The notes beneath the pieces were generated by a model. The model was given only the letters and a program-made list of their open reading frames with translations, ran no database searches and had not been told where the DNA came from. From the human T2T-CHM13v2.0 reference genome, Homo sapiens: a DNA stretch of 64,000 nucleotides. The first letter of the stretch is position 1. Each line of letters opens with the position of its first letter. Of the stretch, positions 3,012 to 38,419 are shown one piece after another. The position numbers and the translations under genes are program-made. The stretch lies in NCBI RefSeq assembly GCF_009914755.1, contig NC_060944.1, one strand, 5' to 3'.

Positions 3012-3610
<599 letters not shown>

Positions 3611-11239: not shown

Positions 11240-13650
11240 AAGATTCAAAGAATAATAATAAAATAAGCAGCTTTCCCTACCTTAGAGACCTTCTGTGTAC
11301 CCTTCCCTTATCCCTTCATTTTCTTCCCTACCAACATAACCACTGATCTGAATTTTGCATTTACTTTTCTCATTCTTCTCTTACAGTCATACTACATACC
11401 AGGCAGCTCTAAAGATATATTGTTTAATTTTACATGTTTTGGACTTCTTTAAAAAAAGAATCATACTGAACAAAAATGGAATCATATTGCATGTATTCTT
11501 ATGAAACTTCATTTTTCATCCAATAATGCTACTTGAAATGTATTTATGTTGATGTAGTTACTACAGCCATTTTTCACTGCTCTATATTTGTCTCACTTTT
11601 GCCAGGTTTAATTTTTTTCTATTTTATCCTTTGAACTAGCTTGAAATTATATACTTCACTCTTTTTTCTAATCTCTTGGTTACTCCAGAAATTTTGGCTT
11701 GTATACGTAACTTTAATCAAAATCTTTATGATTCTCTTGAATGATAAAATATGTTCAGCATTTTAGCTTCAGCTATTTAGTCTGGTATTTAATTACACCT
11801 TCCTAAACCACACACATTAGACATTTTTACTACAATCAATGCTTATAGAAATTCACTCACATATTTATCAGCATTTTTTTTATTTACCTCTCCTTCATGC
11901 ATCTCTGACTTTGCATTTGGGATTATTTTCCTTCTGACTGTAGTTGGTTCTGTAGGAAATCCTCCCGGGAGTATTGTTAAATATTTTCCATTTGTTTGAA
12001 TGAAAAATGGCCTTTTGAAATCTTTTGTATTAAAAGTTGGATGCACTGGGTTTTCAGTTCCCGGTTGACAGTTGTTTCTTCTTGGCACATTGGCAGCAGT
12101 TTCTCCTATAGTCTAATATTCACTGTTGCTGTTGACAAGTCATGGCAATTGTTATTCCTCTGAAGTAATCTCTTCCTCTGGTTGCTTTTAATATTTTCAT
12201 GTTGTATTGGGTGTTCTGAAATTTCACTAAGTCTCCAGGTATATGTCTTTCTAAGTTTCCTCCTCAGGATTTGTTGTGCTTCCTAAATCTGAGGTTTGAG
12301 GTAATCAGTTCTCTAGCATTTATAGCCCATTGCTACTTTGCCTCCCTCCCATTCATTCTGTTTTCCTTTTCTCAATAGACTTTTCCACTCTGTCGTGCCC
12401 TCCAACAACTTTCTTATGATTCCAACCTAGCTGTCTCACTGTGCTGCCTTCTAAATCACTTTTTCATAACTATCTTCTAGGTCAATAATTTTTCCTTCAG
12501 CTGTGTCTAATCTGCTGATAAAACATCTGTAAGGAACATGACTGTGCTGCACCCAAGCAGGCATAGGCCAAGGTAAACAACCTGGATGACTCAGCAGGTT
12601 TGTGGTACAAGTGCATAGTCCCATGTCTTATATAATCATAGCTGTGTAGAGATAACATAGAAAAGTTCACCGCCATAGCCATAACATAGAGAAGCTCACC
12701 ACCTAGCTCTCAGCCACTATTGTTTGTGTAATGTATAAAAGTAACACTGACCCTGTGAGGCAGCTGCTGAATAAAGCCATGTCTCATCTACCTGCTGTTT
12801 CTCAAGTGTTCTTCCAGCTCCCTGCCCCACATCCACCCACTCCCCCTCAGCCCTCAGCTGGGGTTGGAACTTGACCCCAAGCATGACAACATCCATTGGT
12901 TTTTAATTTTAATTACCATATTTTTAATTCCTAGATATTCTTTTTGCTTTATTTTAAAATTGATTTGGTCATTTTTTAATAGTTACTTCTTCCTTAATCA
13001 TATTATCATCTTCTTATTTATTTCCTGAAATGTGTTAGACATTCTTAGATAATTCCTATATCTATTAGAATTATGGGTTGAAGTTGTTTGTTATTTGTGC
13101 TCTTCTTATTCATGTTGACTTGTTATTTTATATATTATATATTTTCATGGAACTTTCTTTTAAGTGTTGTCTGAGACCTGGGTTCACGTCAAGGATGATT
13201 TTTGTTTGCTTCAAGTAGCTGTCCACAGAGGTAGAGGTGGGAAATCAACCAGTGGCCAATAAATTCATTCCCCAACTCCCTACAAAAGTAGTATGATGCA
13301 AGCCATAAACTCAAATACCGACCAGGTTGTGGGTATGAAATCTCTTTGGAGATTTTTTTTTTCCTTCACTTAGTGCTCAATTCATCAGGCAATTTCCCTT
13401 CTTGTTTTCTGAAAGAATTTATTGCCAGTTACAGCTTATGCTGCTGTTCCAATTGTATAAGGGATCTCTAGTGAGACTCCCCACATTGCAAAGTCCTTAG
13501 ACTTTTTCTCTGATTGCTCCAACTCACACATTTGAAATCATACAAATGGAAGCTCATGGTTGCCAAGACTCAGCAGATATCTTCAGGGTGAAACCTGGAG
13601 TCAGTGTTAATGTCTCTTCAGAGTCTTTAGTTTGTTTTCATCCTTTTCCA
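11240..13650 (-). mobile_element. Ancient L1M (L1ME-like) fragments, antisense
   Basis: L1 3'-end motifs ('aatggaatcatattgcatgtattctt'); minus ORF 11843-12088 weakly resembles the L1 ORF1 C-terminus; boundaries approximate. Confidence 0.55.
12528..12888 (+). mobile_element. LTR18 (ERVL-class) solo LTR
   Basis: Starts TGTAAGGAACATG, ends CATGACA; perfect 5-bp TSD acatc (12523-12527, 12889-12893); TGACTCA, TATA-like box and AATAAA inside. Confidence 0.85.
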
Positions 13651-34765: not shown

Positions 34766-35799
34766 TCCAAAATATTTTCTTAAGGGTCACTGACAATCTT
34801 GCAAGGATGTAAATGACAAGCTGTATTTGTTTGTTGACATTATCTATCAAAGAGGCTTCTAAACACTTTTGTGTTTCTGATGTGAATAAAGGAAATACAA
34901 CATTGAATAATAATCCAGGCAGGTTGCAGGTGGCATAAGGCTTCAGAACTCCACCATAGAAATGAACGTGATTGGAAATGCAGCAATCAACATTTTGACA
35001 GAAAAGTGAATGTTTCAACTGCTTTATGTTCACAAATTGTTTCTATTTTCTTTTTGTATTACAAAATGTAAGCAGTGTGAGTTTGTGTGTATATGTGTGT
35101 GTCTATGTGTGTAAATTCAAAGGTTTATCCTGTAATAAGATAGAATCAGAGATAGACTCCTTGCTATTCTCAGGTTATTTTTTCCTTGTTCACATTTTTT
35201 TACACTTGAGTAAAATACTTCTGCAAGACATATTGGAATAGTTTTGTGACTAAATCCTAGAATTTGCAAAATAGTGAATCACAATATAATGTTTCCTTTG
35301 GATACTATTTTGGCCATACTTGGTTGGCTTTCTGGAAGTATGAAGTGGAGGTTTCCCAGTGACACCTGTAGCAGTGCTTCTCAGGGACATAGAAAGACAC
35401 CAAATTCTCTTATACTGGGATTCATCCAGGTGACCAGCATTTGCTTTGCAACAATCATCTGTGGTGATTGCTCAAGTGTAGAAGGGTTTTCAAGAACTCC
35501 ATCATGGAGTTTTGTAGTGGCAGATTAGCTGTCCTCTACTTCTCCTGGAGTGGCTGGGATTCTTCAACACCAAAAGAGGCATTGAGTCTTTCTTAATTGG
35601 CTTCAGTCAGAGAGGGTGGGGATATGTGAAACTTCTCAGTCTGATCTGTTCTTCAGCTCCTCAGAAAAGTTCTACAGCTACTCCAGATCTGTTTCGATAA
35701 AGGGGCGGTGGTGCAATGAAATTATTCATAACAGCCCACTTTAGAGGTCTGCCTGAAAAAGGTGGAGTATTTTTAATAGTAGATGTGTTGAGTGTCTTA

Positions 35800-36460
35800 T
35801 CCATATCCTTTTTACCGAGGCTGGTGCACCCAGCCCTTGAGATGCCGAGTACATTATGTTGCATTCCTCCCAGGGGTGGCACACAGGCAATGACTGACTC
35901 GTATGAGGGTGTAAACGTGCAGCTCCCTTGCCTCTAGGTGGGATGTGGGATCTATGCCAGCACTGTCCAGGATAAAGTCATTAAATCTAGAAAGTTTACA
36001 TGGATTCAATGAATTCCTCTATTCGAAGTCTTACTATGTTTAATAGCAAAACAAAATAGTTACATAATGCAGTTCAATACATTTTGATATGTTGTTATGA
36101 TGAAGAAACATGAAAATTCTAAAAATGCCCATTTGTTGATTACAGAGCAATTAAGTTTTAAATGATTCAAGTGAGTCTAGGAATGTAAATCTTAACCATT
36201 GCAGAAGTGAATTAAACATGTTTAGAGAAATCACAATTAGTCAAAAAAGGTAAGGTAGATTATTCTACCTTACCACAGGGCTCAACAGGGAACTCCACAG
36301 GGATCAAGCTCATCTAGATGCCAAATCTTTGCCAGCTCCTTCCTCTGCCCCATCCTACATCTCTCACTCCCTTACAGGTTTCCCCTAAATGCATTCCCTT
36401 AATAAATCATGGGACGATTATTTTCATCTCAGCCTCTGCTTCTGGGAAACCCAGCTAACA
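35800..36460 (+). mobile_element. LTR16-like ERVL LTR split by an inverted 317-bp insertion
   Basis: 'caatgactga...cagctcccttgcctctaggtgggat' before the insert; 'ctcccttacaggtttc...aataaatc...tctcagcctctgcttctgggaaaccc' after it; 5' boundary uncertain. Confidence 0.65.
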
Positions 36461-36864
36461 ATATCGAATATGGAAACATCAAACCCCTGAATATAACCAG
36501 GGCTGCCTCTTACTTAAAGACTCATGCGTGAAATGACCTGAAGTGCTTAGAATAATCTACCTTACCTTTTTTGACTAATTGAGATTTCTCTAAACATGTT
36601 TAATTCACTTCTGCAATGGTTAAGATTTACATTCCTAGACTCATTGGAATCATTTAAAACTTAATTGCTCTGTAATCAACAAATGGGCATTTTTAGAATT
36701 TTCATGTTTCTTCATCATAACATCATATCAAAGTGTATTGAACTGCATTAGGTAACTATTTTGTTTTGCTATTAAACATAGTAAGACTTCAAATAGAGGA
36801 ATTCATTGAATCCACTTAAATTTTCTAGATTTAATGACTTTATCCTGGACAGTGCTGGCATAGA
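35951..36864. repeat. Long inverted repeat: 317-bp arms (35951-36267, 36548-36864), 280-bp spacer
   Basis: Manual reverse-complement alignment: no indels, 10 substitutions (~97% identity). Confidence 0.97.
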
Positions 36865-38419
36865 GATAAACATTTAATTGATAGCTTATTTTATGAAAAA
36901 TATAACATGGCAAAGGTTTACAGTTCTGTTTAATCTCAGCAGTGGCATGTTAAGAAGACAAACGGAGATTAGGAAACATTTTTTCTAAATAAAATACCTC
37001 ATTTTATGTGGTACTGATAAGCAGTATTTACAACATGAAATAAATTATTCCTCGTATACTTATTGAATACCTTAAAAGTATGTGCTAGGAGCTGGGAACC
37101 CAGAGTAAAATATAGGTCTTGTTCCTAAGAGGATACGTCTATTATGGGGAGATGAAAGGGGGGTTAGGGGCAAGCACAGACTTGTAAATAATCTATGAGT
37201 AAACGTCTATACACCAGATTTGCCTAGAGGATGGTGTATTTGCGTGGCAGGATATTGGGTACAGCTTTAGCAGTGAAAAGAGCAAAGTGCAAAGAGAACC
37301 TAGAAGAATGCACCACTGGGAGCTGACTATTATTATTTTCATTAAAGGTGAGTATTGCATAACTAAAATATTTCAGCTCAATGACCTAGTTAAATAAATC
37401 GTTGTAATAAATAAAAATGTCTTCCTGTCTTTATGTAACTGCTCATTTTGTGAAAAGCATAACTTGGCTGCACACCTTTTTTCCGCCTTCTTCTGATAAA
37501 TTCTTGGAGTCCAAAAGGTATCTTTCATTTAGTAGATTTTTCAAAATGTTTATATTCATAGCAAGTTCTGGTTTGGGTCAAGCAGGTGGTAGAAATCATA
37601 ACTGCCTCCAGAAATCAGGAGGGCCCACGCAGTACAGGACTTGGCAGGCCCTGGTGGCCTAAGGTCAGCCAGAGTGCAGATGCAATGCAGCAACTATAGT
37701 ACCAGCATTATTCTAGAAAGTTCTTACTTCTTGGAAGTACTGACTTGTAAGTAAAAGAGCATTTTAACTTGATCATATTCACTCTGGAGTCTTCTACATC
37801 TGAATCTAAAGGGGAACTGTATTCTTCCTGCAAATTTGGGATTCTCTAAATAAAGTTCCAGGGCACCAGAGGTTCCACTGGGTTAGACCTTTGATTTATT
37901 TTAATGAAGAGCCCTTCTTCTTTGTTGATGTCTGACAGCACATTCACAGTGATCCAGTCATTTTGGGGGTAAGATAGAAGGAATCCAGGTAGAATACAAT
38001 ATAAAAATGTCTCAAACTAGGCAAGAGAAGAGTCTAGTCCTGTGGTAGGTCATATTTGTCAAAATATTTGCTACCCTCTTAGCTGTTCATCCTCACTGAG
38101 CCTCTCTCTTCAAAAGATTATCCTTCATATCCCAACACTGTGAGGCTTGAGCACGTGCTTTGCTTTGAACAATGAAATACAAGGGAAGCAATGTAATCCA
38201 TTTCTGAGCCAAAAAAATTAAGAGCCATTGAGTGATTCTGCCAGGCAGTCTCCTGGGTCATCTCCAGAATCTGGAGTGCAGAGCCACAGTGACCCATAAT
38301 GGACATTGTGTAAGCAAGAAATAAGTATTTGTTATTCATAAATTACCAGTGTTTTGGGCTTGTTACTGCAACATTGACCCATTGGTAGAAACAACTCAGC
38401 TTCTGGTTAATAGGGTATT

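What the first reader, a model, noticed from the sequence alone, without database searches (positions are those of the whole stretch)
35951..36864. 317-bp near-perfect inverted duplication of unique DNA inserted into an LTR
Seen: 35951-36267 is the reverse complement of 36548-36864 (no indels, 10 substitutions), with a 280-bp spacer. The arms are AT-rich and match no repeat I recognise. The left arm interrupts an LTR16-like element that resumes in the spacer in the same orientation. Inference: the left arm is the derived copy, made by template switching to the opposite strand a few hundred bp downstream, and ~3% divergence suggests an ape-era event unless gene conversion homogenised the arms. 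Predicted consequences: a ~317-bp non-Alu dsRNA stem if transcribed (ADAR, Dicer or MDA5 substrate), hairpin/cruciform fragility, and a spacer that could invert recurrently.
Basis: partly seen in the sequence, partly recalled or inferred. Interest (0 to 1): 0.7.

Follow-up and report, generated by a model that had tools for sequence, protein, structure and literature searches.

The report
Inverted local duplication splitting an old LTR
A 317-base stretch of unique intron DNA in the human PLCB1 gene was copied backwards into an ancient retroviral LTR 280 bases upstream, probably in ape ancestors, leaving a real but ordinary hairpin-forming repeat.

Summary
Arms 35951-36267 and 36548-36864 are 317 nt each, with 10 substitutions, no indels and a 280-nt spacer. 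The arm sequence occurs only at these two places in the reference genome.

The spacer and the DNA just upstream of the left arm are two colinear pieces of one old, dispersed LTR-like repeat. That repeat has at least 40 scored places at 68-77% identity and a unit of about 400-460 nt. So the left arm is the derived copy, inserted cleanly.

The inner junction lies in a 7-nt microhomology next to a small palindrome at the source boundary. The outer junction is blunt, and there is no target-site duplication or poly-A tail. This fits a double template switch (pattern 1-4-3-2).

Arm divergence of 3.2% (95% interval 1.5-5.8%) points to roughly 7-30 My. The LTR is of the order of 100 My old.

The name "LTR16" could not be tested, because no repeat library was available. 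The sense RNA would fold into a stem that is 97.8% paired, but it lies deep in a 257-kb intron. The long spacer and short perfect tracts argue against marked fragility or frequent flipping. Interest is low to moderate.

The parts
35784..35950 (+). 5' piece of an old solo LTR-like repeat (about 167 nt). It begins with TG.
   Evidence: Single-sequence nhmmer with 8 family copies gave 7 colinear hits to window 35785-35958, 4 of them with E below 0.01. Smith-Waterman on the pieces apart was colinear for 6 of 7 copies. The start was placed by eye.
35951..36267 (-). Left arm: the derived, inverted copy of 36548-36864, inserted into the LTR.
   Evidence: 317 nt, 10 mismatches. It is unique in the genome apart from its partner. 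It splits the LTR.
36268..36460 (+). 3' piece of the same LTR-like repeat (193 nt). It ends in CA and has AATAAA at 36401.
   Evidence: 12 other genome places match spacer positions about 50-204 at 71-92% identity. All 8 of 8 fetched copies match at 68-74%. The shared 3' end is shown, and the hexamer.
36461..36547 (.). 87 nt of single-copy DNA between the LTR end and the source arm. This is the rest of the spacer.
   Evidence: No genome match beyond spacer position 204.
36548..36864 (+). Right arm: the source copy, single-copy AT-rich intron DNA.
   Evidence: The downstream stretch 36865-37800 is also single-copy.
36249..36274 (.). 26-nt perfect hairpin (11-bp stem, 4-nt loop) across the arm/LTR junction. 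Its last 7 nt (36268-36274) are LTR sequence.
   Evidence: The 11-mer occurs at 36249-36259 (-), 36264-36274 (+) and 36556-36566 (+), against 0.09 expected. The DNA fold is -10.5 kcal/mol, z = -5.9.
36548..36566 (+). Source boundary: a small palindrome (4-bp stem, 4-nt loop, 36548-36559), followed by the 7-nt microhomology CCTTACC (36560-36566). The same 7 nt also open the LTR's 3' piece.
   Evidence: Read directly.

Best explanation
A solo LTR of an ancient endogenous retrovirus family sat in intron 3 of PLCB1. Its 3' end was followed by 87 nt of unique DNA and then by the stretch that is now the right arm. Much later, one replication or repair accident made a DNA strand leave its template inside the LTR. 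It copied 317 nt of the opposite strand a few hundred bases downstream, then returned to the point it had left. This is the four-point template-switch pattern 1-4-3-2.

The result is an inverted copy inserted cleanly into the LTR, with the source kept. The return or entry at the inner junction used a 7-nt microhomology next to a small palindrome. The outer junction is blunt.

Shown: the anatomy, the uniqueness of the arms, the split LTR and the junction motifs. Inferred: the order of strand switches, whether a fork or a broken end was involved, and the date.

The structure now probably does nothing. Its only likely molecular effect is a long nuclear stem in PLCB1 pre-mRNA that editing enzymes could act on.
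For: - The arms are exact as described.
- The arm has 2 places in the whole genome, both here.
- The spacer matches 12 other places at 71-92% identity.
- A full-length copy used as query gives 40 scored matches out of 59 candidates, at 68-77% identity.
- The upstream piece and the spacer piece, compared apart, hit adjacent parts of the copies in the same order and strand: 7 of 8 by nhmmer, 4 of them with E below 0.01, and 6 of 7 by Smith-Waterman, with an extrapolated gap of -7 to +10 nt at the junction.
- By eye, the LTR alignment runs up to 36268.
- There is no poly-A and no target-site duplication.
- The 11-mer at the inner junction is also in the source arm (3 matches against 0.09 expected), and it forms a perfect 11-bp hairpin.
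- In print, pattern 1-4-3-2 is a majority pattern that generates single inverted repeats in great apes (PMC7954356, passages).
Against: - The copied stretch (317 nt) is longer than any in the great-ape short-range set (median 12, maximum 128; PMC7954356, passages). That method targets short events.
- The outer junction has 0-1 nt of microhomology. This fits end joining as well as a switch.
- The upstream LTR piece is weakly supported per copy: E values run from 3e-5 to 0.67, blastn found nothing, and a whole-genome search found only the query itself.
- The window's LTR is about 360 nt against about 400-460 in the copies.
- No outgroup genome or second human haplotype could be consulted, so polarity rests on the LTR alone.
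- The junction motif was noticed after the fact.
Confidence: 0.8

Rival explanations
1. A double-strand break inside the LTR was repaired by end joining that captured a 317-bp fragment copied or released from the neighbouring DNA. The fragment went in by chance in inverted orientation, with no strand switching at a fork.
For: The outer junction is blunt, with 0-1 nt of microhomology. The insertion is clean, with no gain or loss beyond about 10 nt.
Against: The source is intact in place. The inner junction coincides with a 7-nt microhomology and a palindromic source boundary, which free-fragment capture does not predict. The two models overlap, because fold-back priming at a resected end is also a template switch.
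Confidence: 0.12
2. The event is much older than 3% divergence suggests (monkey-era or earlier). Arm-to-arm gene conversion has kept the arms alike, possibly because the RNA stem is useful.
For: Gene conversion between close inverted arms is well known (general knowledge). The arms lie only 280 nt apart.
Against: The mismatches are spread along the arm with no significant clustering (P = 0.10 and 0.12). 3 of 5 transitions give G-U pairs in the sense RNA, against 2.5 expected from neutrality (my count), so there is no sign of selection for pairing. Power is low with 10 sites.
Confidence: 0.12
3. The structure is a DNA transposon or MITE with long terminal inverted repeats.
For: Its shape alone: two long inverted arms around a short middle.
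Against: The arms are not multi-copy (2 places). The middle is the continuation of the LTR that lies outside the left arm. There is no target-site duplication. 97% arm identity is far above the 68-77% of the old repeats nearby.
Confidence: 0.01
4. The inverted copy is an assembly or sequencing artefact.
For: Fold-back chimeras occur in long-read libraries (general knowledge). Reads could not be consulted here.
Against: There are 10 substitutions between the arms, a 280-nt spacer, and precise junctions in unique DNA.
Confidence: 0.02

Closest known systems
Short-range template-switch mutations (four-point model, pattern 1-4-3-2) in great-ape genomes (PMC7954356, passages read)
   Same: A reverse-complement copy of nearby sequence is inserted with the source kept. 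This creates a single inverted repeat and lengthens the sequence.
   Different: The copied stretch is 317 nt, against a median of 12 and a maximum of 128 in that set. The switch spans about 900 nt. The evolutionary direction is inferred from a split LTR rather than from outgroups.
Long, highly paired predicted dsRNAs of the human genome (dsRNAscan preprint PMC11838218, section 10 read)
   Same: It meets both cut-offs: above 300 bp and above 96% paired. That class holds 2,018 of 5,134,754 predictions.
   Different: Most of that class forms between inverted LINEs and 88% is intergenic. This one is made of unique DNA and lies within a gene's intron. Whether it is in their table is unknown, because supplements were closed.
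Inverted duplicates of vertebrate genomes (PMC5398296, abstract and section 12 read)
   Same: Its arm length and spacer fall inside their definition (arms 10-10,000 nt, spacer 0-1,000 nt). 4,315,271 such duplicates are listed in human.
   Different: That work treats intergenic cases statistically. This is a single, long, non-repetitive, intronic case with a resolved origin.
Inverted Alu pairs (Alu-IRs) used as fragility models (PMC10164571, passages read)
   Same: Similar arm length (about 300 nt) and an inverted arrangement.
   Different: The arms are unique DNA made by local duplication, not by two transposon insertions. The 280-nt spacer lies in the range where yeast assays show 20- to 300-fold lower instability than with 12 nt.
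LTR16 / LTR33-type ERVL (class III, ERV3) solo LTRs
   Same: It is an old, dispersed LTR-like repeat of a few hundred nt. Print lists LTR16A (6,966 copies), LTR16C (6,631) and LTR33 (9,260) as eutherian (PMC4419796, Table 1 passage), and places LTR16A-E under ERV3 (PMC5753468, passage).
   Different: Assignment to LTR16 rather than another old LTR family was not tested.

Membership tests
Template-switch inverted insertion (four-point model, 1-4-3-2) | The inserted segment is the reverse complement of nearby sequence, and the source is retained. | tested here: met
   307 of 317 bases complementary, with the source 280 nt downstream.
Template-switch inverted insertion (four-point model, 1-4-3-2) | The strand returns to the point of departure: no loss or gain of flanking sequence, no target-site duplication, no poly-A. 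| tested here: met
   Pieces compared apart with 7 copies were colinear in 6, with an extrapolated gap of -7 to +10 nt. The flanks are not duplicated.
Template-switch inverted insertion (four-point model, 1-4-3-2) | Microhomology at the switch points. | tested here: inconclusive
   The inner junction has a 7-nt microhomology plus a 4-bp palindrome. The outer junction has 0-1 nt.
Template-switch inverted insertion (four-point model, 1-4-3-2) | The ancestral state without the insertion is seen in an outgroup. | not testable with these tools
   No primate genomes or other human assemblies were available. Polarity is inferred from the split LTR only.
Template-switch inverted insertion (four-point model, 1-4-3-2) | The copied length lies within the published short-range distribution. 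| tested here: not met
   317 nt against a maximum of 128 (PMC7954356 passage). This is a difference of scale, not of pattern.
DNA transposon / MITE with long terminal inverted repeats | Multi-copy arms and a target-site duplication. | tested here: not met
   2 places in the genome, both here. No duplication at the flanks. The middle continues the outer LTR.
Solo LTR of an endogenous retrovirus | A dispersed repeat family with a defined unit of a few hundred nt. | tested here: met
   13 places with the spacer as query. 40 scored of 59 candidates with a full copy as query. Pairwise extents give about 400-460 nt.
Solo LTR of an endogenous retrovirus | TG...CA termini and a poly-A signal near the 3' end. 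| tested here: met
   The window copy begins with TG at 35784 and ends with CA at 36460, with AATAAA at 36401. The same hexamer sits at the matching place in 4 of 8 copies (ends placed by eye).
Solo LTR of an endogenous retrovirus | A 4-6 nt target-site duplication at the flanks. | tested here: inconclusive
   None was seen by eye for the window copy or for L003, L005 and L006. It may have decayed at this age.
LTR16 (ERVL / ERV3) | Best match to the LTR16 reference among all LTR families. | not testable with these tools
No Dfam or Repbase library was available.
LTR16 (ERVL / ERV3) | Association with an ERVL-type internal region. | not tested
   Naming by inner genes is barred for this finding, so it was left out.
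Long highly paired dsRNA class (above 300 bp, above 96% paired) | Length and pairing cut-offs. | tested here: met
   The stem is 317 bp. 307 pairs are Watson-Crick and 3 are G-U, giving 310 of 317 (97.8%) in the sense RNA. MFE is -552 kcal/mol, z = -55.
Long highly paired dsRNA class (above 300 bp, above 96% paired) | Evidence that it forms in cells (editing or small RNAs). | not testable with these tools
   No reads or editing tables were available. It lies on the sense strand of PLCB1 intron 3 by annotation.

The most novel reading that the evidence does not exclude
The hairpin is not inert. As one of the few long, almost perfectly paired, non-repeat stems inside a gene that is highly expressed in brain (that expression is recalled, not tested), it might be a strong nuclear substrate for A-to-I editing or for small-RNA production. 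It might also be kept alike by arm-to-arm conversion, making it older than its 3% divergence suggests. It would then be an ape-specific structured RNA born in one step by a template switch some 2.5 times longer than any in the published great-ape set.
Probability: 0.07. Interest if true: 0.55.

Novelty: new member of a known kind. Interest (0 to 1): 0.3.

Why it matters
The case is a clean, datable example of how one replication or repair slip can create a 317-bp hairpin from unique DNA. The ancient LTR acts as a built-in marker of which arm is new. The case lies between the short template switches (tens of bases) catalogued in apes and the kilobase-scale inverted duplications of clinical genetics, and its inner junction shows the sequence features that may have guided the switch.

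It also belongs to a rare class. About 2,000 of 5 million predicted human dsRNAs are this long and this well paired. Its position deep in an intron makes any immune or disease consequence unlikely. For the retroviral remnant itself there is nothing unusual: it is an old, broken solo LTR.

Tried and rejected
**Transposon with long inverted ends.** Rejected. The arms are single-copy and the middle continues the outer LTR.

**Retroposed copy.** Rejected. There is no poly-A tail and no target-site duplication.

**Known structured RNA.** Rfam at E up to 1 over 35000-38000 gave 2 weak matches. Both lie outside the arms and far below their gathering scores.

**Upstream piece as part of the LTR.** A whole-genome search with 35500-35950 found only the query itself. 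blastn against the 8 copies found nothing. Only single-sequence nhmmer and Smith-Waterman showed the weak colinear matches, so the 5' piece rests on weaker evidence than the 3' piece. L004 gave no upstream hit, because its copy is cut short by another repeat, and I dropped it. L010's upstream hit was off the diagonal and counts as a miss. One off-diagonal hit of L003 to 35632-35774 (E = 0.16) was seen in 1 of 8 copies and taken as chance.

**Soft mask.** RefSeq lists no masked stretch of 100 nt or more between 34787 and 38820. At first sight this speaks against an LTR. But the mask covers only 12.8% of the window and 25% of chr20, so it is not a full repeat annotation.

**Clustered mismatches as a sign of error-prone synthesis.** Not significant (P = 0.10 and 0.12).

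**Snap-back alternative.** I considered that the 7 nt after the left arm were newly made by snap-back copying rather than being LTR sequence. By eye, copies L009, L007, L005 and L003 carry similar letters at the homologous place, so I treat them as LTR sequence. A replacement of similar letters cannot be excluded. A formal small alignment was run with a wrong end-gap setting and its output is unusable.

**Print.** Five searches gave no paper on this structure by their listings:
- PLCB1 with 'inverted repeat' and 'intron 3'
- PLCB1 with dsRNA, hairpin and intron
- PLCB1 with LTR16, LTR33 and ERVL
- the template-switch search
- the long-dsRNA search

PMC12562434 names PLCB1 only in a patient-cohort context and was not used. 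Supplementary tables were closed, notably Table S5 of PMC11838218, and may list this hairpin.

Full report
**1. The observation**

The inverted repeat is exactly as described. Arms 35951-36267 and 36548-36864 are 317 nt each, 97% complementary and 280 nt apart. A base-by-base comparison gives 10 mismatches (5 transitions, 5 transversions) and no indels. Complementarity ends abruptly at both ends: none of the first four bases beyond either end pair. Each arm is 29% G+C and the spacer is 46%.

Across the whole window, 10 inverted pairs of at least 80 nt lie within 5 kb of each other. The other nine are 74-83% complementary. I checked one of them, 3128-3582. It is built from a very high-copy repeat of about 178 nt, with 3,542 first-look candidates at 89-95% identity. 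That is the ordinary kind of inverted pair, made by two transposon insertions.

**2. The arms are unique DNA**

A search of the whole reference genome with the right arm found two places, the two arms themselves. The 936 nt downstream of the right arm are also single-copy.

Two caveats apply. Matches in the closed regions of the reference are not shown. The search also cannot see repeats more than about 35% diverged.

**3. The virus remnant: is it real, how old, what family**

*Evidence that it is a repeat family.*
- The spacer, used as query, finds 12 other places in the genome at 71-92% identity, all over spacer positions about 50-204.
- I fetched eight of these places with flanks. All eight match the spacer at 68-74% identity.
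- Pairwise comparison among the eight defines a unit of about 400-460 nt with a common 3' end.
- One full copy used as query gives 40 scored matches out of 59 candidates, at 68-77% identity. The tool states that such counts are lower bounds.

*The window's copy.* It ends in CA at 36460 and carries AATAAA at 36401. The same hexamer sits at the matching place in 4 of the 8 copies. By eye, the copy begins with TG at 35784, where the copies also begin. I saw no target-site duplication. I looked for no paired copies around an internal region, because the notes bar inner genes.

The remnant is therefore real. It is a solo, LTR-like member of an old dispersed family, about 360 nt long here, and split into two pieces.

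*Age.* Identity of 68-74% to the other copies gives Jukes-Cantor distances of 0.32-0.42. Half of that is each copy's own share. At 1.0-2.2 x 10^-9 substitutions per site per year (rates recalled), this means roughly 75-210 My. Local alignments flatter identity, so "of the order of 100 My, eutherian-wide" is the fair reading.

*Family.* The name LTR16 could not be tested, because no repeat library was available. Print places LTR16A-E under ERV3/ERVL (PMC5753468, one passage). It lists LTR16A, LTR16C and LTR33 as eutherian, with 6,600-9,300 copies each (PMC4419796, Table 1 passage). This fits the age found here but does not single out one family. Naming it more closely needs either a library comparison of the LTR or inner genes. 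The latter is barred, so I stop there.

RefSeq's soft mask does not cover the LTR. The mask covers only 12.8% of the window and 25% of chr20, so this says little.

**4. The left arm splits the LTR**

The DNA upstream of the left arm and the spacer were always compared with the copies as separate pieces.
- Single-sequence nhmmer with each of the 8 copies gave a strong hit to the spacer, 36271-36470 (8 of 8, E from 1e-14 to 2e-11).
- In 7 of 8 it also gave a second hit to window 35785-35958, on the same strand. That hit lies in the part of the copy immediately 5' of the first. E values were 3e-5, 2.5e-4, 1.2e-3, 4.9e-3, 0.24, 0.29 and 0.67. L004 gave none.
- Smith-Waterman on the pieces apart was colinear for 6 of 7 copies. 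Extrapolating each alignment to the junction leaves -7 to +10 nt unaccounted for.
- By eye, the copies' letters continue from the last bases before 35951 to the first bases from 36268.

The left arm is thus an insertion into a much older LTR, with no measurable loss or gain of flanking sequence. The right arm, 87 nt beyond the LTR's end, is the source.

blastn and the whole-genome search did not detect the upstream piece. It is therefore the weaker half of the argument.

**5. Junctions and mechanism**

There is no poly-A tail and no target-site duplication. The outer junction (35950|35951) has at most 1 nt of microhomology.

The inner junction is more telling.
- The source arm begins with a small palindrome (4-bp stem, 4-nt loop, 36548-36559), followed by CCTTACC (36560-36566).
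- The same 7 nt are the first bases of the LTR's 3' piece (36268-36274).
- As a result, the 11-mer TCTACCTTACC occurs three times in the window against 0.09 expected: once in each arm, and once across the arm/LTR junction.
- The junction is therefore a perfect 26-nt hairpin.

The simplest reading is a double template switch of pattern 1-4-3-2. A growing strand left its template at the LTR site, copied the opposite strand from 36864 back to 36548, and returned. Pairing at the 7-nt repeat and the small palindrome helped at the inner switch.

A fork-based slip and fold-back priming at a resected broken end both fit, and I cannot tell them apart. A pure end-joining capture of a fragment fits the blunt outer junction but not the inner one.

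In great apes, pattern 1-4-3-2 is one of the two majority patterns and creates single inverted repeats. The copied stretch there has a median of 12 nt and a maximum of 128 (PMC7954356, passages). This event has the same pattern at a larger scale.

**6. Date of the duplication**

Ten differences in 317 nt give 3.2% divergence, with a Poisson 95% interval of 1.5-5.8%. Two paralogous arms diverge like two species.

The recalled genome-wide divergences are human-chimpanzee about 1.2%, human-orangutan about 3.1% and human-macaque about 6.5%. Against these:
- the probability of 10 or more differences at 1.2% is 0.006;
- the probability of 10 or fewer at 6.5% is 0.008;
- 3.1% fits well.

In years this is about 13-32 My depending on the rate, with outer limits of 6-58 My.

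If the two tight groups of mismatches arose in single events, or during the copying itself, the count falls to 7 (2.2%). A human-chimpanzee-level age is then no longer excluded (P = 0.09). The clustering is not significant (P = 0.10 and 0.12).

Arm-to-arm conversion would make the true age older. An ape-era origin is the best estimate.

**7. Consequences**

The structure lies on the sense strand of PLCB1 intron 3. The intron is 256,799 nt long, and the structure is 116.5 kb and 139.4 kb from the flanking exons.

*RNA stem.* Folded as RNA, the 914 nt form one stem of 317 positions. 310 positions are paired: 307 Watson-Crick and 3 G-U. MFE is -552 kcal/mol, against -184 +/- 7 for 20 shuffles. 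This passes the cut-offs of above 300 bp and above 96% paired. Only 2,018 of 5,134,754 predicted human dsRNAs meet them. Most of those form between inverted LINEs, and 88% are intergenic (PMC11838218, section 10).

*Immune sensing.* That paper also notes that such stems in introns are removed by splicing. Exposure to the cytoplasmic sensor MDA5 is therefore unlikely. Nuclear editing is plausible but untested.

*Selection.* Three of the five transitions give G-U pairs, where 2.5 are expected by chance. There is no sign of selection for pairing.

*DNA fragility.* In yeast, widening the spacer of Alu inverted repeats from 12 to 100 bp lowers recombination 300-fold. Widening from 12 to 200 bp lowers rearrangements about 20-fold. 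Dropping from 100% to 94% identity lowers them about 15-fold (PMC10164571, passages). With 280 nt and 97% identity, this repeat should be fairly stable, except in long single-stranded DNA.

*Flipping.* The longest perfect tract between the arms is 76 nt, and the spacer is in the ancestral orientation here. Frequent flipping is not expected and was not tested.

**8. Verdict**

The structure is real and was correctly read by the first stage in its essentials. It is a locally duplicated, inverted 317-nt segment that splits an ancient solo LTR. It was made by a template-switch-type accident in ape ancestors. It is a new, well-resolved member of a known kind. It is somewhat unusual for its length and for being non-repetitive and within a gene, but nothing suggests a function.

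Noticed in passing
window 3128-3272 and 3438-3582: A 145-nt inverted pair at 80% complementarity with a 165-nt spacer. It is made of a very high-copy repeat of about 178 nt, with 3,542 first-look candidates at 89-95% identity. It is an ordinary SINE-type inverted pair.
   Followed up: partly
window 36249-36274: A perfect 11-bp stem with a 4-nt loop straddles the arm/LTR junction. It exists only because the 7 nt that open the LTR's 3' piece repeat a 7-mer just inside the source arm.
   Followed up: yes
window 36275-36303: The hexamer ACAGGG occurs three times within about 30 nt at the start of the LTR's 3' piece (read). Compared with copy L009, the window seems to carry about 11 extra nt here (by eye). 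This may be a small local duplication. It makes alignments at the junction ambiguous.
   Followed up: no
window 36246-36255 (+ strand): The inverted copy places the string AAG followed by GTAAGG on the sense strand of the PLCB1 intron. It resembles a splice-donor consensus (motif recalled, not scored). No exon is annotated anywhere near.
   Followed up: no
G000 C10:88343444-88343612 (+), C10:88161590-88161758 (-), C10:80625052-80625220 (-): Three hits of the LTR family on chromosome 10 have identical scores, identity and query span. They are probably copies carried within a segmental duplication.
   Followed up: no
window 1-64000; chr20: RefSeq's soft mask (stretches of 100 nt or more) covers only 12.8% of the window and 25% of chr20. 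This is far below the usual repeat content of human DNA, so old repeats like this LTR are not masked.
   Followed up: yes
window 11955-13155: The only annotated functional element in the window is an enhancer ('MED14-independent group 3 enhancer'). It lies 23 kb from the finding and appears unrelated.
   Followed up: no
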